Below, in pieces: positions 2,006 to 27,037 of a DNA stretch of 64,000 nt. The position numbers and the translations under genes were made by a program. A model generated the notes under the pieces. That model made no database searches. It was not told where the DNA came from and saw nothing but the letters and a program-made list of their open reading frames with translations. This DNA comes from a virus. The stretch lies in UHGV virus genome UHGV-0275551; one strand, given 5' to 3'. Within the stretch, counting starts at the first letter, position 1. Every line of letters begins with the position of its first letter.

Positions 2006-7389
<5,384 letters not shown>

Positions 7390-19091: not shown

Positions 19092-19167
19092 TGGAGAATC
19101 CGAAGGGACTCGAACCCTTATAAACCTGTTTTGCAGACAGGCACATAGCCGTTTCTGTCACGGATTC
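19092..19167 (-). tRNA. tRNA-Cys (anticodon GCA)
   Basis: hand-folded cloverleaf; 7-bp acceptor gaatccg/cggattc, T-arm aaggg-actcgaa-ccctt on plus strand; sense anticodon loop CTGCAAA; CCA encoded. Confidence 0.6.
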
Positions 19168-19171
19168 AAAT

Positions 19172-19264
19172 TGGAGGAAGATACCAGACTTGAACTGGTA
19201 CACCGATTTCTCAGCTACTGGCAGTTTAGCAAACTGCTCCCTTACCTTTTAGGGTTAATCTTCC
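19172..19264 (-). tRNA. tRNA-Ser (anticodon GCT), class II
   Basis: 93 nt with long variable arm; acceptor ggaagat/atcttcc; sense anticodon arm GCAGT-TTGCTAA-ACTGC. Confidence 0.55.
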
Positions 19265-19266
19265 AT

Positions 19267-20001
19267 TTATTTCTGTAATGCGTTCTTCATTTCTGGTGTT
19301 GCAATAGTGTCAATTACACCAGTTTTACAAGCATCATCAAACCAGTCTGGTAAGATACCTGCTAAGAACCCATTGATATTCGTTTTAAGGTACTCTGCAA
19401 TAAGAGCAGCTTCTTCTTCAATCATCTGCACAACTTCATCTGCATAAGCTGTAATTTTTGAAATACCTTCATTAATCTTACTAACAGCTTGCTCAGCTAA
19501 ATCAGAAATAGTATCAAGACCTTTGTCAATAGCATCTTGTAAGTCACTTAACACACCATTAACACTATCTAGTGCACTGTTAATCGTATCAATAGCTTTT
19601 TGACCATACTCTGTAGCAACACCCATAATACCACTAAATGGTGTACAGCCAACTTGTTCACCTGCTGCACCCATAACATTAGAGTAACCTTTTGCTACCT
19701 GCATACGTGATGAAAACTCATCAATGGACTTTTGACCGTAATCTGTTAGTGTTTTGGTAGTTGATGTAGTGCTTGTCAGACTCGTGGTAAAGCTGTTAAG
19801 CAGAACTGTTGTAAGTCCAGCAGCAACAAGCTTATCCTTTACTGTAGGGTCTGATACAGAGCTAATAGAGCTTACAAGTGATGTAGAGGCAGCTACGGTT
19901 CCACCGAGAACTGCTGCACCAGTAATAAGGGGGTTAGAAAACCCTTTACCGGTTTTTAAGAGATTGAAAATCTCCTTACCTTGTTCTGTCATCTCTTTCA
20001 T
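19267..20001 (-). CDS. hypothetical Ser/Thr-rich protein embedded in tRNA array
   Basis: track ORF 19267..20064 shortened to the ATG at 20001 because the longer form overlaps tRNA-Phe; weak AAAGGTG RBS. Confidence 0.4.
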   Translation of the reverse strand: MKEMTEQGKEIFNLLKTGKGFSNPLITGAAVLGGTVAASTSLVSSISSVSDPTVKDKLVAAGLTTVLLNSFTTSLTSTTSTTKTLTDYGQKSIDEFSSRMQVAKGYSNVMGAAGEQVGCTPFSGIMGVATEYGQKAIDTINSALDSVNGVLSDLQDAIDKGLDTISDLAEQAVSKINEGISKITAYADEVVQMIEEEAALIAEYLKTNINGFLAGILPDWFDDACKTGVIDTIATPEMKNALQK

Positions 20002-20019
20002 TAAGCACCTTTGAAATTG

Positions 20020-20094
20020 GTAGTCCAGTGGGATTTGAACCCTCTTCTCATGTTTTTCAGACACGCGCTTTAACCATATAAGCTACTTGGACTA
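20020..20094 (-). tRNA. tRNA-Phe (anticodon GAA)
   Basis: acceptor tagtcca/tggacta perfect; sense anticodon arm CGTGT-CTGAAAA-ACATG; T-stem has one mismatch; CCA apparently incomplete. Confidence 0.5.
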
Positions 20095-20099
20095 TAAAT

Positions 20100-20175
20100 T
20101 GGGGTGACCTACGGGATTTGAACCCGTATAGACCATGTTCACAGCATGGGTCATTACCATTTATGATAAGGCCAC
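20100..20175 (-). tRNA. tRNA-His (anticodon GTG)
   Basis: sense anticodon arm CCATG-CTGTGAA-CATGG; discriminator C73; perfect T-arm. Confidence 0.6.
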
Positions 20176-20206
20176 ATTTAAGGACTCTCGTAAGAATCCT
20201 TAGAAG

Positions 20207-20282
20207 TGGCAGCGGCATAAGGATTTGAACCTTAATAGGACAGCTTCAGAGACTGCTGCATTGCCAGTTATGCTATACCGCT
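20207..20282 (-). tRNA. tRNA-Gln (anticodon CTG)
   Basis: sense anticodon loop CTCTGAA, stem with two G:U pairs; G73 discriminator; D-stem GCAT/ATGC. Confidence 0.5.
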
Positions 20283-20287
20283 AAATT

Positions 20288-20366
20288 TGGTACTCCATAT
20301 CGGATTCGAACCGATACATAACACAGATTTTAAGTCTGGCCTCTCTGCCAATTGGAGTAATGGAGC
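20288..20366 (-). tRNA. tRNA with Leu anticodon TAA, short variable loop
   Basis: 79 nt; sense anticodon arm CCAGA-CTTAAAA-TCTGT; Leu-type D-loop CAATTGGCAGAG; variable region about 7 nt; A73. Confidence 0.45.
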
Positions 20367-20368
20367 AT

Positions 20369-20444
20369 TGGCGGGGGATGTTGGAATTGAACCAACTTCT
20401 TCGATTTCAAAGACCGAGGTTTTAACCTTGTAAACTAATCCCCT
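20369..20444 (-). tRNA. tRNA-Gln (anticodon TTG)
   Basis: sense anticodon arm TCGGT-CTTTGAA-ATCGA; T-arm gttgg-aattgaa-ccaac; G73. Confidence 0.55.
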
Positions 20445-20452
20445 TTAAATCT

Positions 20453-21010
20453 TTACTTTCTTAGTGGATGAATAAAGAATGCCAACATAACTCTTTCCCT
20501 TGAAAATGCTCTTTCTTCTGGGACAACACTTTTAAGTTTCCACCCAACATAAATTCTCCAGTAAAATTGTTTACCAAAGATTTTGATTGACGGCACAAAA
20601 GCGAATAATCCCCAAGCATTACTGTTCCACATTAGGAGATAACCAGTCTGATTATCTTCAGGGTTAGAACTTACGTTGATATTACCTTTCCACTTAGTAA
20701 CATCTTTTACATCTCTTCCTAATACATGGTAAGAGAAGTTATAAGCTTTGTTTCTCCAGAGCCATCCAACTCTCTGCATGTAGACACCAAGCTTACCAAT
20801 CTTTCTAATCTTAGCCCATCGTTTGATATGACCTGCATCACCATCAATTGGGTTGTCATAAGTCTCCATCCATCTGAACCCGAAAGGTAAGTGTCCTTTC
20901 TTCTCACTGTAGAATGGAACTACAAAAGGTGCTAAGATAACTGCTAAGATTGCTGCAAATGGCTCTAACAAAGCTAAGAAAATCCATGAAGCATACTTTA
21001 AGTATCTCAT
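20453..21010 (-). CDS. hypothetical membrane protein embedded in tRNA array
   Basis: 185-aa track ORF; hydrophobic N terminus (IFLALLEPFAAILAVILAPFVVPF). Confidence 0.4.
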   Translation of the reverse strand: MRYLKYASWIFLALLEPFAAILAVILAPFVVPFYSEKKGHLPFGFRWMETYDNPIDGDAGHIKRWAKIRKIGKLGVYMQRVGWLWRNKAYNFSYHVLGRDVKDVTKWKGNINVSSNPEDNQTGYLLMWNSNAWGLFAFVPSIKIFGKQFYWRIYVGWKLKSVVPEERAFSRERVMLAFFIHPLRK

Positions 21011-21249
21011 TGTCTAATCCTCGTAAGGAGGTAAATGTTATTATTCGTTTCTAAACCTTCTGGTAAAACTGTCTCAAAAATAACACTCTTCAGATGTCTA
21101 CCACCAAAACAATCACGTATAAATCTTTCTACTCTAGCGGGGTCACATAAGTATCCCACTTTTAAGAAAATGTGGTGTTCAACACCAATGACCCTGACAA
21201 ACTCAATACTCTCACAGTTTTCATGTTCAACTACTGTTAATGTTTGCAT
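21007..21249 (-). CDS. hypothetical protein
   Basis: 80-aa track ORF, stop overlaps start of 20453..21010 ORF. Confidence 0.35.
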   Translation of the reverse strand: MQTLTVVEHENCESIEFVRVIGVEHHIFLKVGYLCDPARVERFIRDCFGGRHLKSVIFETVLPEGLETNNNIYLLTRIRQ

Positions 21250-21266
21250 AGTATCACCTTTTTATC

Positions 21267-21342
21267 TGGCGCAGGATAAGGGATTCGAACCCCTATTAAC
21301 AGCTTCGTAGACTGTTGCTCTTTCCATTTGAACTAATCCTGC
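21267..21342 (-). tRNA. tRNA-Arg (anticodon ACG)
   Basis: acceptor gcaggat/atcctgc perfect; sense anticodon arm ACAGT-CTACGAA-GCTGT. Confidence 0.55.
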
Positions 21343-21347
21343 AAAAT

Positions 21348-21425
21348 TGGTGTTCCAAGACGGATTCGAACCGTCACTAATACAAGGTTTGAGCTTGCAT
21401 CCTCTGCCAATTGGGATACTGGAAC
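21348..21425 (-). tRNA. tRNA with Leu anticodon CAA, short variable loop
   Basis: 78 nt; sense anticodon arm GCAAG-CTCAAAC-CTTGT; Leu-type D-loop CAATTGGCAGAG; perfect T-arm gacgg-attcgaa-ccgtc. Confidence 0.45.
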
Positions 21426-21426
21426 A

Positions 21427-21501
21427 TGGTACTCACTAAAGGACTTGAACCTTTTTCTTCATCTTGTAAGGGTGATGTTTTACCATATAAACTAAGCGAG
21501 T
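21427..21501 (-). tRNA. tRNA-Val (anticodon TAC)
   Basis: sense anticodon loop CTTACAA; T-arm aaagg-acttgaa-ccttt; D-stem gttt/aaac. Confidence 0.5.
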
Positions 21502-21502
21502 A

Positions 21503-21597
21503 TGGAAGAGGTCTGAAGTTGTGCCGCTAACTCAACTTCGTGGAATTTGTTACGGTCTTCAGTTGACTCAAAGCGGTCTTTCACTTGACCTCTGAAT
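21503..21597 (-). other. 95-nt structured spacer, possibly a degenerate tRNA or small RNA
   Basis: tgg + 7-bp terminal inverted repeat agaggtc/gacctct like an acceptor stem, internal 7-bp hairpin gaagttg/caacttc, but no canonical T-loop. Confidence 0.25.
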
Positions 21598-21673
21598 TGG
21601 TGCTCCCACAAGGACTCGAACCCTGATAAGTTGCTTACAAGGCAACCGTAATAACCAATTATACGATAGGAGC
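21598..21673 (-). tRNA. tRNA-Thr (anticodon TGT)
   Basis: sense anticodon arm GTTGC-CTTGTAA-GCAAC perfect; acceptor with one G:U. Confidence 0.6.
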
Positions 21674-21680
21674 ATTAATT

Positions 21681-21755
21681 TGGAGCATCCAGAGGGAATC
21701 GAACCCTCAACCTCAGTTTGGAAGACTGTAATTTTCCCGTTTAAACTATGGATGC
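21681..21755 (-). tRNA. tRNA-Gly (anticodon TCC)
   Basis: sense anticodon loop CTTCCAA; perfect T-arm gaggg-aatcgaa-ccctc; acceptor gcatcca/tggatgc. Confidence 0.5.
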
Positions 21756-21761
21756 ACTAAT

Positions 21762-21837
21762 TGGTGGAGTCACTGAGAATTGAACTCAGTTCCCAAGTTT
21801 GCAAAACTCGAATTTTAACCATATAAACTATGACCCC
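21762..21837 (-). tRNA. tRNA-Ala (anticodon TGC)
   Basis: sense anticodon arm CGAGT-TTTGCAA-ACTTG; G3:U70 pair and A73 as expected for Ala. Confidence 0.6.
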
Positions 21838-21843
21838 ATTGTT

Positions 21844-21919
21844 TGGTACAGGTGGAGGGAATTGAACCCATCGTCTTACTGATTAAGAGTCAGCCGCATA
21901 ACCATTTTGCTACACCTGC
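21844..21919 (-). tRNA. tRNA-Lys (anticodon CTT), weak T-stem
   Basis: best parse gives sense anticodon arm GCTGA-CTCTTAA-TCAGT; T-stem only 3 clean pairs; an alternative parse gave a poorer loop. Confidence 0.4.
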
Positions 21920-21926
21920 ATTAATT

Positions 21927-22003
21927 TGGTACACCTAGAGAGATTCGAACTCACACTGAGCAGATTCTAAGTCTGCTGCCTCTACCAGTTGGGCTATAGG
22001 TGC
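21927..22003 (-). tRNA. tRNA with Leu anticodon TAG, short variable loop
   Basis: 77 nt; sense anticodon arm GCAGA-CTTAGAA-TCTGC perfect; Leu-type D-arm GCC-CAACTGGTAGA-GGC; 5-nt variable loop. Confidence 0.5.
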
Positions 22004-22083
22004 ATTAAATCTTTTTAGAGAACTTCTAAGAACCTAAGCAACAAGGTTCCACAACAAGCTGTAATAACCTTAGAAGCCCTCTA

Positions 22084-22104
22084 AAAAGACCTAAATAGGT
22101 CTTT
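22084..22104 (-). terminator. hairpin terminator-like element downstream of the 22247..22588 ORF
   Basis: aaagacc-taaat-aggtcttt hairpin; short T-run on the minus strand. Confidence 0.35.
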
Positions 22105-22246
22105 GCATAGTCTTGTTTAATCCGGTGACTAGAACCTTTGGAGAGCTTGATATTATCTCTTCTCCGTGACACCTACTAGGTGCTTTGACAGTGTACGACA
22201 ATACACGAGGGATAAACCGACAATGCGAACAAGCATGGACGGAGTA

Positions 22247-22588
22247 TTAAATCTTTAAGCTAAGTTCAGTCTTAGACTTGATATCTTTAGCTTTGTAGAT
22301 GATGACTTTATCAAGTGGTTCAATGTAAACAGCTAAGTAATCAACTTGAGAGTTATCAAAATTCATTATTCTATTTTCATTCTTGTTAGAACGAACTCTT
22401 TTCAGTTGCACTCTCCAAAGTTCACCTCTTTTGACTGAGGTTGATTTTACCTCAACAGTCTCAATCAAACCATCTTTGTGAACTAGAAAGTCATACTTTG
22501 CATTATCTGTAGCTGGTGAATACACTTCATAACCTCTTTTGAGGAAAGCTAATTGTGTAGCAATTTCACCTACTGAACCTTTCTTCAT
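22247..22588 (-). CDS. PD-(D/E)XK-type nuclease-like protein, putative
   Basis: track ORF 22247..22768 shortened to ATG 22588 (strong AGGTGG RBS; longer form overlaps tRNA-Ser); motif YDFLVHKDG...IETVEVKS fits a D...E.K nuclease core. Confidence 0.4.
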   Translation of the reverse strand: MKKGSVGEIATQLAFLKRGYEVYSPATDNAKYDFLVHKDGLIETVEVKSTSVKRGELWRVQLKRVRSNKNENRIMNFDNSQVDYLAVYIEPLDKVIIYKAKDIKSKTELSLKI

Positions 22589-22611
22589 AATCACCACCTT
22601 AAAAATCATTT

Positions 22612-22698
22612 TGGCAGAGAGTGCAGGAGTCGAACCCGTACCGTTTCCAGCAGCACCAGTTTTCAAGGCTGGTTGGTCTCCGTTGACCGCCACTCTCT
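22612..22698 (-). tRNA. tRNA-Ser (anticodon TGA), class II
   Basis: 87 nt; acceptor agagagt/actctct perfect; sense anticodon loop CTTGAAA; long variable arm. Confidence 0.55.
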
Positions 22699-22711
22699 CC
22701 GAAACAATCTT

Positions 22712-22794
22712 TGGCATGGGACGGAGGAGTTGAACCCCTTTGAAACGGTTTTGGAGGCCGTTGCTCATGCCTTAGAGTCTTAACATCGTCCCAT
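22712..22794 (-). tRNA. tRNA with anticodon CCA (Trp?), atypical 83 nt
   Basis: perfect acceptor atgggac/gtcccat, G73, sense anticodon arm ACGGC-CTCCAAA-ACCGT, but the D-region is about 7 nt too long. Confidence 0.35.
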
Positions 22795-22936
22795 ATTATA
22801 ATTCGAAGCTTACCCTGTTATCTCAACACTGTCAAGCTTCTTCTCAGATTATTTACATGTTCTGGAAAACATGAGATACAGACCACCTCCCTACAGGAAG
22901 ACCCACTAAGGCCGTCTAAGTAATCTGCTAACTATT

Positions 22937-23013
22937 TGGTACACCCTACAGGATTCGAACCTGTAACTAACGATTTAGAAGACCGTTGCTCTATCCAATT
23001 GAACTAAGGGTGC
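22937..23013 (-). tRNA. tRNA-Arg (anticodon TCT)
   Basis: sense anticodon arm ACGGT-CTTCTAA-ATCGT; perfect T-arm acagg-attcgaa-cctgt. Confidence 0.6.
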
Positions 23014-23259
23014 ATTATCTTTAAAGACTCTCTTAGAAAGCCCTTAAAGATGCCCACCTTATTAATCATACCGTGGGCGAGTACGCCAAATTCTTTGATG
23101 AGGGATTGGAAGACCTCACTGGTGTTTAGCCTATCAAGCTACTGCCAGAAAAACATTGTCGTTTGCATTTATTTTAAATTTGCAAAATAGACGCTACGCA
23201 ACGAAAACTAAGGTTACTATAAAGTAGTCACATCTCAATGTCAACAACTTTATTGAAAT

Positions 23260-23335
23260 TGGTACTGGTAGGTGGAATCGAACCACCGATGTTCCCTTAT
23301 CAGGGGAGTGTTATAACCTTCTTAACTATACCAGC
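23260..23335 (-). tRNA. tRNA-Ile (anticodon GAT)
   Basis: sense anticodon loop CTGATAA; perfect T-arm ggtgg-aatcgaa-ccacc. Confidence 0.6.
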
Positions 23336-23336
23336 T

Positions 23337-23413
23337 TGGAGGTTCAGATGGGAATCGAACCCACATTCATAGGGCTTATGAGACCCTTGCATTACCTTAT
23401 CTGCGACTGAACC
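23337..23413 (-). tRNA. tRNA with anticodon CAT (Met or Ile2 type)
   Basis: sense anticodon arm AGGGT-CTCATAA-GCCCT; acceptor ggttcag/ctgaacc perfect. Confidence 0.55.
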
Positions 23414-23417
23414 ATAT

Positions 23418-23493
23418 TGGTAGAAGTGGAGGGATTCGAACCCATCGCCTGTCAGATTAAAAGTCTGCCGCATCACCATTCTGCTACACTTCC
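23418..23493 (-). tRNA. tRNA-Lys (anticodon TTT)
   Basis: sense anticodon loop CTTTTAA; T-arm gaggg-attcgaa-cccat. Confidence 0.55.
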
Positions 23494-23496
23494 ATT

Positions 23497-23640
23497 AAAT
23501 TATCTTTGTAGATAAGCTACCCAGACTTGCTTAAGGTCTGTAGCGATGTGCCTTTTTGGGTTTAAATCTAGAATTTACCCTTTCACCCTTTGTGGTCGCA
23601 TACTCACAGGTAAGCTTAATAACTTATCTACAAAGATAAT
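23497..23640. repeat. 19-bp inverted repeat bracketing about 105 bp inside a tRNA spacer
   Basis: aattatctttgtagataag (left arm) and its exact reverse complement cttatctacaaagataatt (right arm). Confidence 0.55.
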
Positions 23641-23785
23641 TACCAGACCGTTGTTTATCATCTTAAGTGCTACCATTACACCAACTCGACATCTGCCGAG
23701 TGAAGGAATCGAACCTTCGCCTTTTCTTTACCGAGAAATAGATTGTTTAAGTTTTGCTGTAAACGGTCTTCTGTAAATTTGTTGA
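23641..23785 (-). repeat. spacer unit (family shared with 24180-24262 and 24340-24430) containing a tRNA-like T-arm fragment
   Basis: begins taccagaccg, ends ttgctgtaaacggtcttctgtaaatttg; internal gaagg-aatcgaa-ccttc hairpin followed by ttttcttt. Confidence 0.4.
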
Positions 23786-23922
23786 GCCAGACCAAGTTTT
23801 AAATTTTTCAAAATTAAATTGGCTTGAAATTTCATACATTCTTGCTGTATTTGGTCTTCTGCTCCTTTAAAGAATACTCGTAAGAACTCTTTAAGGGAGG
23901 GGCTAAATAGCCCTCTCAAAAT

Positions 23923-24000
23923 TGGCGGTTATGAAGGGATTTGAACCCTCATCATCTCCCGTGACAGGGGAGTATTTTAACCAGATTAAACTACATAACC
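23923..24000 (-). tRNA. tRNA-Asp (anticodon GTC)
   Basis: sense anticodon arm CTCCC-CTGTCAC-GGGAG perfect; acceptor ggttatg/cataacc perfect. Confidence 0.6.
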
Positions 24001-24006
24001 TTTATT

Positions 24007-24094
24007 TGGTGTGCCGTGTAGGAGTCGAACCTACCGAGTCTCAATGACAAGGGATTTACAGTCCCCACCGCTACCATCTACGGGATAACGACAC
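24007..24094 (-). tRNA. tRNA-Tyr (anticodon GTA), class II
   Basis: 88 nt; sense anticodon loop CTGTAAA; perfect T-arm gtagg-agtcgaa-cctac; long variable arm. Confidence 0.55.
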
Positions 24095-24102
24095 ATTTAA
24101 TT

Positions 24103-24179
24103 TGGCGGTTAGTCAGGGATTCGAACCCTGTGCCATTCGCTTAACAGGCGACCGCACATACCTTATGTGCTTCCTAACC
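24103..24179 (-). tRNA. tRNA-Asn (anticodon GTT)
   Basis: sense anticodon loop CTGTTAA; D-stem GCAC/GTGC; perfect T-arm caggg-attcgaa-ccctg. Confidence 0.55.
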
Positions 24180-24262
24180 ATGTTTAGTATTACCAGACCG
24201 TATCTTTCAATTTTTCCGCTAAAAATTTAATAAATATTGCTGTAAACGGTCTTCTGTAAATT
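24180..24262 (-). repeat. spacer unit between tRNA-Asn and the second CAT tRNA
   Basis: shares taccagaccg start and ttgctgtaaacggtcttctgtaaatttgg end with the 23641-23785 unit. Confidence 0.45.
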
Positions 24263-24339
24263 TGGAGGCGGGTGCAGGAGTCGAACCTGCCGATACCATG
24301 CTAATGAGACATGTGAGACGCCCTTTCTCTATACCCGCA
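24263..24339 (-). tRNA. tRNA with anticodon CAT, pair 1:72 mismatched (initiator-like?)
   Basis: perfect T-arm gcagg-agtcgaa-cctgc; sense anticodon loop CTCATTA (position 37 is T); acceptor pair 1:72 is T:C. Confidence 0.45.
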
Positions 24340-24430
24340 ATTCTTAATGACCAGACCAAATCTCTTCTTTGTCCGATTTACCTTCAGATGAATAAGATTA
24401 AGTTTGCTGTAATTGGTCTTCTGTCAAAAC
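24340..24430 (-). repeat. spacer unit between the CAT tRNA and tRNA-Glu
   Basis: accagaccaaa start and tttgctgtaattggtcttctgtcaaaactgg end, degenerate copy of the spacer family. Confidence 0.4.
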
Positions 24431-24508
24431 TGGCGTTCCAGAAGGGATTTGAACCCTCAGATATCCACTTTGAAAGAGTGGTGACTTTACCGTTTTGTCT
24501 ACTGGAAC
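24431..24508 (-). tRNA. tRNA-Glu (anticodon TTC)
   Basis: sense anticodon arm CCACT-CTTTCAA-AGTGG perfect; acceptor gttccag/ctggaac perfect. Confidence 0.6.
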
Positions 24509-24515
24509 ATTAATT

Positions 24516-24592
24516 TGGTCTCTGTTGGAGGACTTGAACCTCCGGCCTTACCGCCCCAAACGGAACGCTCTACCAAGCTGAGCTAAACAGAG
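24516..24592 (-). tRNA. tRNA-Pro (anticodon TGG)
   Basis: sense anticodon loop TTTGGGG; perfect T-arm ggagg-acttgaa-cctcc; D-arm GCTC-AGCTTGGTA-GAGC. Confidence 0.55.
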
Positions 24593-24716
24593 ATAAACTT
24601 TTCAAACTCTATGTAACCACTTTAACATTATTTTTTAGTGGTTGTCAAGAACTTTTTTAAAATATTTTTCAGTATCTTAGAAAAGCTCTCATTTCGTTTC
24701 TATGTAGAACATATTA

Positions 24717-24756
24717 AAGGGTATTAAACACATTGTCAATACCCTTTTTAAAACTT
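24717..24756. terminator. 9-bp-stem hairpin with T-runs on both sides (bidirectional terminator candidate)
   Basis: aagggtatt / aataccctt stem, 12-nt loop, followed on plus strand by ttttaaaactttttacc; lies between the vWA gene and the tRNA array. Confidence 0.4.
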
Positions 24757-24757
24757 T

Positions 24758-26173
24758 TTACCAGATATAACGGTCAATCATTACTGCTTTGAGCATTACA
24801 CTGATTGGGTCAAACTTCTCACCACCAAGCAGAGCTTTTAAAGTGGCTGGAGAGAACCCTGATACCATTGCTACACCGTTATCCTTAACAGATACTTCGC
24901 AAGTACCATTACGGTTTGCTAAGTACCAGAATACCAGTTGTGGCATCTCATATCCAGCTTTTTTGTACTTACTCTGAATTGCTTCAAAGTTTGTACGACC
25001 GTTAGCCCCATCAACCTGATTAAACTCCATATCGGAGAAGATGATAAGCTTACTTGGCATATCTTTCTGAGTCAAGTTGTTTCTTTTGCCTGTCTCAAGA
25101 ATACGGTCAAAAGCTGCTTGTAAGTTAGTTGAGCCATATTCAACGTGTCGCATCACCTGACGATGACGGTTTCGTAAATCACCACTCAGTTCGATGAAGT
25201 GAGGGTTTGTTGAATAAACCATCAACTCATTCTTAAAGCAACCTGTATTGCGTTCTGCTACATACAAGGCAAGTGATACACCAATATCCAGAGCAGTAAT
25301 GGAGCCAAAATTCACCCAAGACATTGAACTTGATACATCAGACATACACAAGATGTTTTCACCTTCTGCCATCCAGTTTGGTAGTGCTTTCCACTGCTCA
25401 TTAGCAACATCTGCATTACCATGCTTGACAGATTTAATCACATCGTATGGGTAAACAGCACCAGCATTAATCTTAGCCTCACCTTTTGATAAGGACTCAA
25501 TGTAAGCTTTGTAACGTTCTCCATCCTTACGGTTAAACAGTTTTTGGTAACGTGCAGCAGCAAGTGAGGGAACCTTACTGTAGTCAATCTTGCCAAACTC
25601 ATTAGCAGAGATTTTTTGCTCAACTGTATCAGATAGTGCAGATAACAGTGTGCGGTACTCTTTCTCGCTCAAGTTGGCAAACTTGCAGAAACGTTTTACA
25701 AACTGCTTATGACGTGGTTTGACTCGTGGTAACCACTTAGCCGCCAAACCTGCTGTTGCAGGGTCTAGTAATGCTGCTTCTAAATGTTTGAAGGCATCTG
25801 TCTCGAAACAAGTACCCACGAAGATTTTGAAGTCATCAAAACGACCAAGTTCTGCAATCTTATCCATAATGCGAAGAACCTGTGTAGGCTCTAAAACTTT
25901 ATCTTCAATTGCTTGAAGCAAAACAGTTCTGAAGGCTTTACGCTCACCCATACCTTCTCGTACATCTCGCATATGAAGCAAAATACGAACTGCAACATCA
26001 ACATCCTCACGCAAAGCTTTGTAGAACAAGTCTGGTAAGATTTCTACATTGCTACGGCTTGAACCAGCAGCTTTGTAAAAGTCTACAAGAGCAGACATTG
26101 ATGAAGTATGGTTTACAGCACCATTTTCAGTTCGACCTGCATGAAGGTGCGCATGTTTAAATAATTCGCTCAT
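24758..26173 (-). CDS. vWA-domain protein with about 280-aa helical N-terminal domain
   Basis: 471 aa; MIDAS-like DxSxS (ILCMSDVSSSMSW) and KLIIFSDMEF strand typical of von Willebrand A domains. Confidence 0.55.
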   Translation of the reverse strand: MSELFKHAHLHAGRTENGAVNHTSSMSALVDFYKAAGSSRSNVEILPDLFYKALREDVDVAVRILLHMRDVREGMGERKAFRTVLLQAIEDKVLEPTQVLRIMDKIAELGRFDDFKIFVGTCFETDAFKHLEAALLDPATAGLAAKWLPRVKPRHKQFVKRFCKFANLSEKEYRTLLSALSDTVEQKISANEFGKIDYSKVPSLAAARYQKLFNRKDGERYKAYIESLSKGEAKINAGAVYPYDVIKSVKHGNADVANEQWKALPNWMAEGENILCMSDVSSSMSWVNFGSITALDIGVSLALYVAERNTGCFKNELMVYSTNPHFIELSGDLRNRHRQVMRHVEYGSTNLQAAFDRILETGKRNNLTQKDMPSKLIIFSDMEFNQVDGANGRTNFEAIQSKYKKAGYEMPQLVFWYLANRNGTCEVSVKDNGVAMVSGFSPATLKALLGGEKFDPISVMLKAVMIDRYIW

Positions 26174-26254
26174 ATTTTACTCTCTTCTCTCATTTGTTGT
26201 TTGATGTGACAGACTTTAGAGCAACTTTATAGAGTCTGTCAACACCTTTTAAAA

Positions 26255-26626
26255 TTATTTTTTAAGAGTCGCTACAGCAGAGAACGTTGGTTTGTTATCT
26301 GTCTGTTGTTGACCACCATTATCAGGAGTCTTCTTAGTGTCTGCTGCAAGTGCTTTCATCTCACCTGCTGAGTGAGTAAAGATAGTTTTACCTACCTCAA
26401 TCATGCTCTTGATGGTTACGTCGTCTGTGTTTAACCCGAACTCTGCAAGCTTAGCAGCATCCCTTGTAACAATCGCTTCAAATAACTTTGCAGCAAACTC
26501 AGCAGAGTTGTCAATGGTCAGTTGAGCTTTTACAAGTGAGCTTTTGTTGCGAGAGCCTTTTGGTCTTCCAGATGGGTTTCCAGATTGGCCTTTTTTAAAC
26601 TGGCCTTTGTTTGTTCTGTTTTTCAT
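26255..26626 (-). CDS. hypothetical basic protein
   Basis: 123-aa track ORF; N-terminal KGQSGNPSGRPKGSRNK motif; divergent from the plus-strand cluster. Confidence 0.4.
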   Translation of the reverse strand: MKNRTNKGQFKKGQSGNPSGRPKGSRNKSSLVKAQLTIDNSAEFAAKLFEAIVTRDAAKLAEFGLNTDDVTIKSMIEVGKTIFTHSAGEMKALAADTKKTPDNGGQQQTDNKPTFSAVATLKK

Positions 26627-26801
26627 TGGTATGCCTCTTATAAGACCTCTTAAAAGGCTTTTAAGATAAAAGATAGATATCCAGAAAGATATCTGTTTAA
26701 ATAGCCTTTTTAGAGGAACCTTTTAAGTTATCTTCTAAGTATTTATAAGCCTACACCTTGTCAAGTACTTTGTCAACAACTTTTTTAACTTGCAATAGTT
26801 C

Positions 26802-26830
26802 TTGACTTGTTGTATGGATTACTGTACCAT
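26802..26830 (+). promoter_or_regulatory. sigma70-like promoter candidate for the plus-strand cluster
   Basis: TTGACT - 17 bp - TACCAT, about 45 nt upstream of the ATG at 26876. Confidence 0.3.
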
Positions 26831-26875
26831 CTTACTTAAAGCTGTAGGTCTGCCTTGTTCTACAAAGGAGACTTA

Positions 26876-27037
26876 ATGAGAAAATCAAATAAACCGAAGA
26901 AAGGTAAGAATACCAATCACTGTAAGGAATCAAAAAGGGTAGAGTCAATCTACTATTCATCCTCTGAAATTGGTCTGTACCTGTTCTTTCAAAATTACAG
27001 AAGACAAGAGGATTATCTATGTGTAGTTCCCAATTAG
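26876..27037 (+). CDS. hypothetical small basic protein
   Basis: track ORF 26855..27037 re-started at ATG 26876, which has an AAAGGAGA RBS; the track start is a TTG. Confidence 0.3.
   Translation: MRKSNKPKKGKNTNHCKESKRVESIYYSSSEIGLYLFFQNYRRQEDYLCVVPN

What the first reader, a model, noticed from the sequence alone, without database searches (positions are those of the whole stretch)
24758..26173. vWA-domain protein with helical N-domain adjacent to the tRNA array (Ro60/TROVE-like architecture?)
The 471-aa protein has a clear vWA MIDAS motif (DVSSSMS) in its C-terminal third and a helical N-terminal region. Helical domain plus C-terminal vWA is the architecture of Ro60/TROVE proteins, which bind tRNA-like Y RNAs, and the gene lies next to a tRNA array containing non-tRNA structured spacers with tRNA-like fragments. 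An Rsr/Y-RNA-like pairing is speculation from architecture and context only.
Basis: inference. Interest (0 to 1): 0.55.

Follow-up and report, generated by a model that had tools for sequence, protein, structure and literature searches.

The report
Phage Ro-like protein with partner RNAs
This phage gene encodes a ring-shaped protein with the fold of the RNA-quality-control protein Ro60, and four small RNA genes hidden between the neighbouring tRNA genes look like its partner RNAs, belonging to an apparently undescribed RNA family that travels with this gene in hundreds of phages and closely resembles RNAs so far thought unique to social amoebae.

Summary

The speculative "Y-RNA pairing" holds up computationally. 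Four spacers of the downstream tRNA array share one module: a terminal stem followed by UACAGCAA. Element D (23637-23778) also encloses a circularly permuted tRNA-like domain (V, T arm, closed acceptor hairpin, D arm), as in bacterial YrlA Y RNAs.

A covariance model built from such RNAs found 240 hits in 155 independent DUF2828 loci. All were on the gene's strand and clustered within about 500 nt of the gene (p~1e-27 and 1e-37), with extensive stem covariation. A related phage lacking the gene lacks the elements.

The short forms match Dictyostelium Class I RNAs feature for feature: AAG start, covarying stem, CUUACAGCAA, CUGU end. Those RNAs are published as unique to dictyostelids.

None of the elements reaches an Rfam gathering score. 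No expression or binding data exist. Whether Dictyostelium has a DUF2828 protein could not be tested.

Verdict: a new variant of the Ro60-Y RNA kind.

The parts
24758..26173 (-). Gene for a 471-aa Ro60-like protein: N-terminal alpha-helical repeat domain (DUF2828, about aa 1-265) plus C-terminal vWA domain with a complete MIDAS (DUF7788, about aa 270-455)
26213..26242 (-). Promoter-like site upstream of the gene (TTGACA-18-TAAAGT), embedded in an inverted repeat GACAGACT...AGTCTGTC
   Evidence: Consensus scan, 10 of 12 matches; sequence read. This is a consensus match only, and the number of promoter-like sites in the region is not above the shuffled expectation.
24716..24747 (-). 12-bp hairpin directly after the stop codon (terminator-like) that overlaps a promoter-like TTGACA-17-TAATAT. 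A second promoter-like site at 24619-24648 precedes tRNA-Pro.
24345..24428 (-). Element A, short form. Outer stem UGAC/GUCA, AGA/G internal loop, stem AGACCAA/UUGGUCU, then UUACAGCAA and a variable apical part. It fills the spacer between tRNA-Glu and tRNA-Met.
   Evidence: Motif at 0 mismatches; fold; R1 hit 24347-24424 at 25.0 bits; descriptor hit; Rfam Dicty_Class_I_RNA 19.7 bits.
24187..24261 (-). Element B, short form. UUAC/GUAA, AGACCGU/ACGGUCU, UUACAGCAAU. It fills the spacer between tRNA-Met and tRNA-Asn.
   Evidence: R1 hit 24189-24257 at 27.3 bits; descriptor; Rfam Dicty_Class_I_RNA 20.1 bits with an aligned stem, UUACAGCAAU and CUG.
23781..23866 (-). Element C, short form. GAGC/GCUC, AGACCAA/UUGGUCU, AUACAGCAAG.
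   Evidence: Motif at 1 mismatch; fold; descriptor hit 23789-23857. Not listed by R1 at E<=1. Conserved in Sf13.
23637..23778 (-). Element D, long form. Stem AGACCGUU/AACGGUCU, UACAGCAA, anticodon-stem-like CUUA/UAAG, V hairpin, T arm GAAGG-UUCGAUU-CCUUC, closed 7-bp acceptor-like hairpin ACUCGGC-AGAU-GUCGAGU, UG, D arm GUGU-AAUGGUA-GCAC. This is a circularly permuted tRNA-like domain in the YrlA layout.
   Evidence: Sequence; fold -33.4 kcal/mol with all arms predicted; R1 hit 23639-23774 at 93.5 bits (it is a training member). Conserved with compensatory changes in Sf13, SUSP2 and BPS17L1.
19092..24592 (-). Array of 26 tRNA genes on the gene's strand that hosts elements A-D. tRNA 5' and 3' processing would release A and B as discrete RNAs (inference).
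   Evidence: ARAGORN; Rfam.

Best explanation
The gene encodes a divergent Ro60-type ring protein (helical-repeat toroid plus MIDAS vWA domain). Elements A-D are its Y-RNA-like partners. The proposed mechanism has four steps.

(1) The protein is made as a phage middle gene.

(2) The downstream tRNA operon is transcribed, and RNase P plus 3' tRNA processing cut out the inter-tRNA elements as RNAs of about 70-140 nt.

(3) The protein recognises the conserved module at the base of each RNA. That module is the terminal stem, with conserved outer A-U and G-C pairs and a following G, together with the unpaired UACAGCAA. It occupies the position of the GNCGAA Ro-binding motif of YrlA.

(4) The variable part of the RNA acts as an adaptor that recruits or blocks a second factor. 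In element D this part is a tRNA mimic with a closed acceptor end and no anticodon loop. Candidate factors are PNPase or tRNA-processing and repair enzymes. The effect would be to redirect RNA surveillance or decay, or to guard the phage's tRNA supply, during infection.

What is shown here: the fold, the RNA family, its structure by covariation, and its genomic linkage to the gene family. What is inferred: expression and processing of the RNAs, physical binding, and the downstream effector.
For: Protein:
- Confident model.
- Full-length Ro60/TROVE matches ahead of all other vWA proteins.
- Ro60 is the only vWA protein recovered by a family profile in the PDB, at the MIDAS region.
- hhalign E 3.9e-4 from the last TROVE helix through the vWA domain.
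- Pfam vWA_Ro60 matches weakly in 8 of 57 members.

RNA:
- Four copies in the window.
- Conserved across three Ounavirinae genera with compensatory changes.
- The same architecture lies next to the gene in phages of Klebsiella, Cronobacter, Mycobacterium, Bacillus, Listeria, Staphylococcus and Campylobacter.
- Model R1 gives 125 hits on the window plus 88 loci and 115 hits on 80 prokaryotic genome loci, all on the gene's strand.
- 49 of 77 hits lie within 500 nt of the gene (11% of the flank, p 1e-27), and 83 of 115 within 600 nt (18% of the flank, p 1e-37).
- A model-free descriptor gives 60 gene-proximal hits on the gene strand against 2 on the other, while control motifs are unbiased.
- Stem covariation: 90.8% of cells paired against 41-45% in slid controls, and 24 of 24 pairs with double-sided changes.
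- 20 of 48 loci without any tRNA still have a gene-proximal element.
- Phage Arno18 has the tRNA array but neither the gene nor the elements.
- Sub-threshold but significant YrlA matches to seven long-form elements in five lineages.

Precedent: Y RNAs are encoded within 4 kb of Ro60 on the same strand (PMC4201824). A phage Ro60 binds phage Yrl RNAs and host PNPase (PMC12135203).
Against: - No Pfam TROVE match in any family member at E<=10. Profile-sequence evidence for homology with Ro60 is weak (E 0.68; probability 36%), so the Ro60 relationship rests on a predicted fold.
- The window's element D is not detected by Rfam YrlA even in a 961-nt search.
- The YrlA GNCGAA motif is absent from the 5' region.
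- There is no transcript, processing or binding evidence for these elements in any phage.
- The abundant RNAs reported near the Listeria phage homologue probably correspond to a ROOL-like RNA instead (inference).
- Part of the covariation evidence is circular, because the training candidates were chosen by pairing and the hit alignments are fitted to the model.
- 16 of 75 and 21 of 80 loci showed no gene-proximal element by any test.
Confidence: 0.7

Rival explanations
1. The CAGCAA stem-loops are cis-acting signals rather than free partner RNAs. They could be operators in the gene's 5' or 3' UTR through which the protein autoregulates its mRNA, or processing or stability elements of the tRNA operon.
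For: In many loci the element abuts the gene: 20-60 nt from the stop or start codon, and 79 of 83 proximal hits are upstream in the prokaryotic genome set. KVP40 has UUUUACAGCAAUUU in the gene's 5' leader without an obvious stem partner.
Against: In the window the elements lie 330-1100 nt downstream of the stop codon, behind two promoter-like sites, and are separated from the gene by tRNA genes. The elements occur on either side of the gene and in 2-4 tandem copies. The long forms carry a complete tRNA-like domain, which an operator does not need. The architecture equals that of free, abundant RNAs, namely YrlA and the Class I RNAs (PMC7919456). Autoregulation and a trans-acting role are not mutually exclusive.
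Confidence: 0.15
2. The protein is a vWA/MIDAS protein-interaction module with a helical domain, for example a chaperone cofactor or a virion component, with no RNA role. The linkage with the RNA elements would reflect shared residence in tRNA or early-gene regions.
For: The Listeria phage homologue was detected in purified virions (PMC12282133). vWA domains usually mediate protein contacts. There is no TROVE sequence match.
Against: The full-length fold matches are to Ro60 specifically. The RNA elements track the gene even where no tRNAs are present (20 of 48 such loci). They are absent from a related phage that has the tRNA array but not the gene.
Confidence: 0.07
3. The elements are decaying tRNA genes, recombination scars or mobile-element debris in a fast-evolving tRNA array.
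For: Element D contains tRNA-like arms. The array also holds a homing-type endonuclease gene and an uncalled tRNA-like sequence.
Against: Closed acceptor hairpins without CCA recur in unrelated lineages with compensatory changes. The CAGCAA motif and the stem register are conserved between phages whose proteins share about 30-35% identity. The short forms have no tRNA-derived sequence at all.
Confidence: 0.03

Closest known systems
Bacterial Ro60 (Rsr) with YrlA/YrlB Y RNAs (Salmonella, Deinococcus; Chen et al. 2014, PMC4201824)
   Same: A toroid of helical repeats plus a MIDAS vWA domain (fold level). Partner RNAs are encoded within a few hundred nt to a few kb on the same strand. There is a long RNA whose 5' and 3' ends pair, enclosing V, T arm, closed acceptor hairpin and D arm, plus shorter RNAs that keep only the protein-binding module. 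An RNA-repair gene neighbourhood is seen in some loci (RtcB and RNA ligases in the Listeria phage locus).
   Different: A different Pfam family (DUF2828/DUF7788, not TROVE). About 470 aa instead of about 530. The conserved RNA motif is UACAGCAA after the 5' stem strand instead of GNCGAAN0-1G. Rfam YrlA scores are 29-39 bits in relatives and there is no hit in the window (gathering score 69). The elements are embedded in a phage tRNA array.
Thermus phage phiLo Ro60 with Yrl1/Yrl2 (PMC12135203; PDB 9kop, 9l5y)
   Different: phiLo Ro60 is a TROVE-family protein and its RNAs were defined by CGAA motifs. Only 16% identity. Binding and the PNPase effects are demonstrated there and not here.
Dictyostelium Class I RNAs (Rfam RF01414; Kjellin et al. 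2021, PMC7919456)
   Same: The short forms share every described hallmark: an AAG start, a 6-8-bp stem joining the 5' and 3' ends that conserves structure but not sequence, an unpaired (C)UUACAGCAA(U) immediately 3' of the 5' stem strand, an A/U-rich variable body, a CUG(U) end, a length of about 60-75 nt, and multi-copy clustered genes.
   Different: The hosts are phages and prokaryotes, not amoebae. There is no DUSE promoter. Rfam scores are 20-31 bits against a gathering score of 41.5. Class I RNAs are reported to bind the RRM protein Rnp1A/CIBP, and no link to a DUF2828 protein has been reported. Whether Dictyostelium has such a protein was not testable here.
DUF2828 / PHROG 850 'RNA-binding protein' / 'Ro-like RNA binding protein' annotations
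   Same: The window protein is a full-length member of this family.
   Different: These are name-level annotations taken from remote homology. In the library searched, no paper describes partner RNAs, a binding motif or a function.

Membership tests
DUF2828 + DUF7788 protein family (Pfam PF11443, PF25043; PHROG 850) | Matches to both Pfam models above the gathering scores, and a full-length PHROG match | tested here: met
   148.9 bits (cut-off 27.1) and 105.5 bits (cut-off 29). PHROG 850 E 7.8e-184 over residues 1-471.
Ro60/TROVE proteins | Helical-repeat toroid followed by a vWA domain with a MIDAS motif (three-dimensional architecture) | tested here: met
Ro60/TROVE proteins | Sequence match to the Pfam TROVE domain (PF05731) | tested here: not met
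   No TROVE hit at E<=10 in any of the 57 members. Only vWA_Ro60 (PF25045) matches weakly, in 8 of 57, with best E 4.7e-4.
Ro60/TROVE proteins | Profile-level sequence homology to Ro60 | tested here: inconclusive
   hmmsearch against the PDB: Ro60 at E 0.68. hhalign against human RO60: E 3.9e-4, probability 36%, covering family columns 237-382 and RO60 residues 318-471. The RO60 sequence was written from memory and validated against 9nen_A.
Ro60/TROVE proteins | Binds Y RNA on the outer surface and misfolded RNA ends in the central hole | not testable with these tools
   Needs biochemistry or a complex structure.
YrlA-type Y RNA (Rfam RF02553), for element D | 5' and 3' ends paired, enclosing V stem-loop, T arm, closed acceptor stem-loop and D arm, in that order | tested here: met
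   Fold of 23637-23778. The T, AS and D helices are 92-100% paired with compensatory changes in 16 long forms.
YrlA-type Y RNA (Rfam RF02553), for element D | Score at or above the Rfam gathering threshold (69 bits) | tested here: not met
   No YrlA hit in the window at E<=10. Relatives score 28.7-39.2 bits.
YrlA-type Y RNA (Rfam RF02553), for element D | GNCGAAN0-1G motif near the 5' end (the putative Rsr-binding site) | tested here: not met
   The 5' region has UACAGCAA instead. In the cmscan alignment of the Klebsiella phage RNA, CAGCAA lies on the model's cggCgaA. A GGCGAAGG exists in element D, but at the V/T junction.
YrlA-type Y RNA (Rfam RF02553), for element D | Encoded within 4 kb of the Ro-type gene on the same strand | tested here: met
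   Element D starts 980 nt downstream of the stop codon on the same strand.
Dictyostelium Class I RNA (Rfam RF01414), for elements A-C | A short stem joining the 5' and 3' ends, with structure but not sequence conserved | tested here: met
   Folds. Helix 1 is 89.5% paired, and its inner positions use all four Watson-Crick pair types.
Dictyostelium Class I RNA (Rfam RF01414), for elements A-C | A conserved ~11-nt motif (CCUUACAGCAA) adjacent to the 5' stem strand, with AAG and CUGU termini | tested here: met
   Window...AGAAGACCGU-UUACAGCAAU...ACGGUCUGGU. UUACAGCAA is the commonest 9-mer in 115 independent hits. The termini are as described in PMC7919456.
Dictyostelium Class I RNA (Rfam RF01414), for elements A-C | Score at or above the Rfam gathering threshold (41.5 bits) | tested here: not met
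   19.7 and 20.1 bits in the window. The best relatives score 24 and 30.7 bits.
Dictyostelium Class I RNA (Rfam RF01414), for elements A-C | Dictyostelid origin with a DUSE promoter about 60 nt upstream; expressed as an abundant ~60-nt cytoplasmic RNA | tested here: not met
   The host is an enterobacterial phage. Expression is not testable here.

The most novel reading that the evidence does not exclude
The phage and prokaryotic CAGCAA stem-loop RNAs and the Dictyostelium Class I RNAs are one RNA family, and its conserved core partner is the DUF2828/DUF7788 Ro-like protein. Class I RNAs were discovered in 2004, their molecular function is unknown, and they are published as unique to dictyostelids. 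On this reading they would be the 'Y RNAs' of a second, unrecognised Ro-type ribonucleoprotein lineage that spans phages, bacteria, archaea and eukaryotes. The YrlA-like long forms would show how tRNA mimicry plugs into the same binding module.
Probability: 0.35. Interest if true: 0.9.

Novelty: new variant of a known kind. Interest (0 to 1): 0.8.

Why it matters
Ro60-Y RNA particles are a conserved but still poorly understood RNA-surveillance system. Partner RNAs have so far been found only for TROVE-family proteins.

This locus shows that a large, separate protein family comes with its own partner RNA family:
- More than 3,300 clusters at 90% identity.
- About 700 phage records.
- At least 547 prokaryotic species genomes.

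The RNA family has a sharply defined, testable recognition module (a covarying stem plus UACAGCAA). It comes in a tRNA-mimic version and a minimal version.

That has three practical consequences. The protein gets a concrete ligand for biochemistry. It explains 'empty' spacers in phage tRNA arrays, which current annotation leaves blank or covers with spurious ORFs. It gives a direct handle on why tRNA-rich phages carry this gene.

If the match to Dictyostelium Class I RNAs reflects a shared protein partner, a 20-year-old open question about those RNAs becomes directly testable. The claim that they are a dictyostelid invention tied to multicellularity would then need revision.

Tried and rejected
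- Single-sequence phmmer against the PDB found nothing relevant.
- Rfam at gathering thresholds found only tRNAs. E-value scans of the window gave no Y_RNA or YrlA hit.
- My first strict permuted-tRNA descriptor also picks up tandem-tRNA junctions (long 'loops' containing CCA) and a few coding-region false positives (L023, L043, L071, L082). Those were discarded because they lack the stem and motif.
- MAFFT placed the basal stem one column out of register for three sequences. I used the majority register and let the covariance model re-align.
- I considered using the Listeria phage CKA15 transcriptome as expression evidence. I rejected it because the super-abundant transcripts (CKA15_059-061) most likely correspond to the ROOL-like RNA seen in the related phage, not to the CAGCAA elements.
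- Attempts to learn whether Dictyostelium encodes a DUF2828 protein, or what the four Class I RNA-binding proteins are, all failed. The afdb50 fold library was unavailable. Avesson 2011 and Aspegren 2004 are not held. Searches for DUF2828, UCP015417 and PF11443 gave only plant or irrelevant papers.
- A GGCGAAGG in element D looked like the YrlA Rsr motif, but it sits in the T stem rather than at the 5' end, so I treat it as coincidental.
- I did not build a short-form-only model. Element C is therefore supported only by the descriptor, its fold and its conservation.
Full report
**What is there**

The window is a Felixounavirus genome. Bases 24000-27000 are 98% identical to Escherichia phage wV8 and many relatives.

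The ORF at 24758-26173 on the minus strand is real (471 aa). It matches two Pfam models, DUF2828 (PF11443) and DUF7788 (PF25043), and matches PHROG 850 'RNA-binding protein' end to end.

Homologues occur in 710 phage records from hosts as different as Escherichia, Vibrio, Campylobacter, Mycobacterium, Listeria, Staphylococcus and Bacillus. They are annotated variously as 'vWFA protein', 'DUF2828', 'RNA-binding protein' or 'Ro-like RNA binding protein'. The family has more than 3,300 clusters in the large protein collection and at least 547 hits among species-representative prokaryotic genomes.

The MIDAS residues are invariant in a 57-member alignment: D279, S281 and S283 of DVSSSMS, plus T349 and D381. 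Several N-terminal motifs are also invariant (TxNGA, DxRxGxGER, AKWxPR, NAxxxxPYD).

Downstream on the same strand lie 26 tRNA genes at 19092-24592.

**Is the protein Ro60-like?**

An AlphaFold2 model built from the family alignment is confident (pLDDT 89.4, pTM 0.88). It has an all-helical N-terminal 265 residues and an alpha/beta C-terminal domain.

- Foldseek against the PDB: the first 12 hits are all Ro60/TROVE structures aligned over the full length. They include Thermus phage phiLo Ro60, Xenopus and human Ro60, and Deinococcus Rsr (E 2.7e-8 to 2.2e-6, TM up to 0.62). The next hits are isolated vWA domains at E above 1e-3.

At the sequence level the link is weak:
- A family profile finds Ro60 as the only vWA protein in the PDB, but at E 0.68.
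- hhalign against human RO60 gives E 3.9e-4 and 36% probability, covering the last TROVE helix (RIHPFHIL against AVYPYDV) through the MIDAS core. I wrote the RO60 sequence from memory and verified it against 9nen_A.
- No member hits Pfam TROVE. 8 of 57 weakly hit vWA_Ro60.

The protein therefore has the Ro60 architecture, but it is not a TROVE-family member by the sequence criterion.

**The spacers**

Reading the minus strand showed four elements with the motif AGAAGACCnnUUACAGCAA near the 5' end and nnGGUCUGG near the 3' end. The motif search gave 6 matches at up to 3 mismatches against 0.22 expected, and the 4 matches at 0-1 mismatch are these elements.

All four fold the same way: a 4-bp outer stem, an AGA/G internal loop, a 7-8-bp stem AGACCnn/nnGGUCU, an unpaired UACAGCAA, and then a variable part.

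- Elements A (24345-24428) and B (24187-24261) exactly fill the gaps between tRNA-Glu and tRNA-Met, and between tRNA-Met and tRNA-Asn. tRNA processing would therefore release them (inference).
- Element D (23637-23778) encloses a V hairpin, a T arm (UUCGAUU loop), a 7-bp acceptor-like hairpin closed by a tetraloop with no CCA, then UG, then a D arm with GG. All of this is flanked by an anticodon-stem-like CUUA/UAAG helix.

That is the V-T-AS-D order that defines YrlA Y RNAs (PMC4201824).

The elements are conserved in Mooglevirus Sf13, Suspvirus SUSP2 and Felixounavirus BPS17L1. The outer stem shows compensatory changes (UUAC/GUAA, UUGC/GCAA, UGAC/GUCA, GAGC/GCUC) and the apical parts diverge. 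RefSeq leaves the elements unannotated, apart from a doubtful opposite-strand ORF laid over C and D.

**Does the RNA travel with the gene?**

Closed, permuted tRNA-like modules preceded by [U/A][U/A]CAGCAA sit next to the gene in several distant phages:
- Klebsiella phage phi1_175008 (two copies).
- Cronobacter phage LPCS28.
- Mycobacterium phage Nicholas (GGACCCC-CACAGCAA...GGGGUCC).
- Bacillus phage Izhevsk (AGACAC-ACACAGCAA...GUGUCU).

The two Klebsiella phage RNAs match Rfam YrlA over the whole model (36.4 and 34.3 bits, E about 2e-4 and 8e-4). CAGCAA falls on the model's GNCGAA position. Five more long-form elements from four further lineages also give YrlA matches of 28.7-39.2 bits, all below the gathering score of 69.

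From 16 long forms I built an alignment and a covariance model, R1. On that alignment 91.6% of cells are paired against about 44% in the slid controls. This is partly circular, because I chose the candidates by their pairing.

The independent tests are position and strand:

| Test | Result |
|---|---|
| R1 on the window plus 88 loci, 75 of them unbiased IMG/VR loci at 39-48% protein identity | 125 hits at E<=1, all on the gene's strand |
| Those 75 IMG/VR loci | 37 have a hit within 500 nt of the gene; 49 of 77 hits fall in that 11% of flank (p 1e-27); 20 of 48 loci with no tRNA still have one |
| Model-free descriptor (>=7-bp stem, 1-4 nt, CAGCA, 20-135 nt, complementary strand, G) | 119 hits on the gene strand against 30; 60 against 2 within 500 nt; permuted control motifs unbiased |
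| Replication on 80 prokaryotic genome loci | 115 hits, all on the gene strand; 83 within 600 nt (18% of flank, p 1e-37); 59 of 80 loci |
| Covariation across 120 distinct hits | Basal stem 89.5% paired, inner positions using all four Watson-Crick pair types; every one of 24 pairs shows double-sided changes |

Pectobacterium phage Arno18 belongs to the same subfamily and has the same kind of tRNA array. It has no homologue of the gene anywhere in its genome, and only tandem-tRNA artefact hits.

**Short forms and Class I RNAs**

Most gene-proximal hits are 60-80 nt and lack the tRNA-like insert. Their consensus is (A/U)AAGG-NNNN-(N)UUACAGCAA, then an A/U-rich stretch, then NNNN-CCUG(U/A). Examples are three tandem copies just upstream of the Listeria phage gene and three just downstream of the Staphylococcus phage 6ec gene.

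The only Rfam family that these elements touch is Dicty_Class_I_RNA. Its consensus is GaUcuC-CUUACAGCAAU...GagAuC-UG. Scores are 19.7-30.7 bits against a gathering score of 41.5.

Kjellin et al. 2021 define Class I RNAs by an AAG start, a short 5'-3' stem that conserves structure but not sequence, an 11-nt motif next to the 5' stem strand, a variable remainder, a CUGU end and a length of about 60 nt. They conclude that these RNAs are unique to dictyostelids. The function is unknown, and Rnp1A/CIBP is the one characterised binding protein among four. The phage short forms meet each structural criterion.

DUF2828 proteins exist in eukaryotes: plant papers mention them. I could not determine whether Dictyostelium has one.

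**Mechanism**

The best-supported reading is a Ro60-Y RNA-type particle. The protein binds the stem-UACAGCAA module. The variable RNA part, a tRNA mimic in element D, recruits or occludes another factor.

Known precedents:
- Rsr-YrlA-PNPase in bacteria (PMC4201824).
- phiLo Ro60-Yrl complexes, which attenuate host PNPase (PMC12135203).

Context that fits an RNA-surveillance or repair role:
- The gene abuts tRNA clusters in many lineages.
- RtcB-like and RNA ligase genes lie in the Listeria phage locus.
- PNK and RNA ligase genes occur in genomes carrying the homologue.

Further observations from the literature:
- The Listeria phage homologue was found in purified virions.
- The LeBron homologue is moderately toxic on overexpression. 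The family assignment of the LeBron protein is inferred from its size, annotation and phage cluster.

Binding, expression, processing and the effector are all inferred, not shown.

**Rivals**

- A purely cis-regulatory role is possible for copies that abut the gene. It fits poorly with the window, where tRNAs and promoter-like sites intervene, with tandem multi-copy arrangements on either side of the gene, and with the tRNA-like domain.
- A protein-only vWA role is contradicted by the specific Ro60 fold match and by the gene-RNA co-occurrence.
- tRNA debris is contradicted by the covariation and by short forms that have no tRNA sequence.

**Novelty**

The Ro-like label for the protein is already in databases, and one paper speculates about Y RNAs for the Listeria phage homologue (PMC12282133).

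I found no description of the following:
- The CAGCAA stem-loop RNA family.
- Its long form (YrlA-like) and short form (Class I-like).
- Its tight linkage to DUF2828/DUF7788 genes across phages, bacteria and an archaeal MAG.

I file it as a new variant of the Ro60-Y RNA kind. The possible identity with Dictyostelium Class I RNPs is the most novel reading that remains open.

Noticed in passing
window 23014-23262 (-), between tRNA-Ile and tRNA-Arg: A conserved spacer with its own near-consensus promoter (TTGACA-17-TATAGT). It holds a tmRNA-tag-like frame GCA AAC GAC AAT GTT TTT CTG GCA GTA GCT TGA TAG (ANDNVFLAVA**; compare E. coli ANDENYALAA). Across three Ounavirinae genera the only changes in the frame are GAC/GAT and TGA/TAA, and the following hairpin covaries. 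ARAGORN calls no tmRNA, and Rfam tmRNA and tmRNA_permuted matches are sub-threshold (15.7 and 29.2 bits). It may be a phage tmRNA-like RNA or a tagging decoy.
   Followed up: partly
window 22718-22792 (-): A tRNA-like sequence not called by ARAGORN, with an anticodon loop CUCCAAA (CCA = Trp). Rfam tRNA-Sec scores 23 bits. It is conserved in Sf13, SUSP2, Arno18 and a Klebsiella phage, so it is probably a 27th, non-canonical tRNA.
   Followed up: no
window 22247-22768 (-): The mechanical 173-aa ORF runs through tRNA-Ser(tga). The real gene probably starts after the tRNA (MKKGSVGE...). In wV8 the corresponding gene is annotated as an HNH endonuclease, that is, a homing-type nuclease inside the tRNA array.
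   Followed up: no
L007 (Cronobacter phage LPCS28) 6895-7015 and 7025-7137: These are non-permuted versions of the long form. Rfam calls them tRNAs of 113-121 nt. They have a normal open acceptor stem with CCA, but the anticodon arm is replaced by a hairpin followed by UAUUCAGCA. The binding module can therefore sit in a tRNA in either topology.
   Followed up: partly
L006 (Vibrio phage KVP40) about 4975-4990: UUUUACAGCAAUUU lies in the 5' leader of the DUF2828 gene, just downstream of a TTTACA-17-TATAAT promoter and with no obvious stem partner. This may be an autoregulatory site.
   Followed up: no
L010 (Listeria phage LP-083-2) 3429-3980: A ROOL-like RNA (87.4 bits, gathering score 99.1) lies between the tRNA cluster and the DUF2828 gene. 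It probably explains the super-abundant 'small ORFs without RBS' (CKA15_059-061) reported for the related phage CKA15.
   Followed up: partly
L010 7815-11458: An RtcB-like ligase, a second RNA ligase, an HD phosphohydrolase and a 'tRNA amidotransferase' gene lie within 5 kb downstream of the Listeria phage DUF2828 gene. This RNA-repair neighbourhood is reminiscent of the rsr-rtcBA operon.
   Followed up: no
window 26210-26245 (-): The promoter-like site of the Ro-like gene is embedded in a perfect 8-nt inverted repeat (GACAGACT ... AGTCTGTC). The hairpin after the stop codon likewise contains a promoter -35 box. Promoters within hairpins recur in this region.
   Followed up: no
L036 10696-10922 and L079 3253-3443: Group I intron matches (71.5 and 40.9 bits) in two environmental phage loci that carry the gene.
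   Followed up: no
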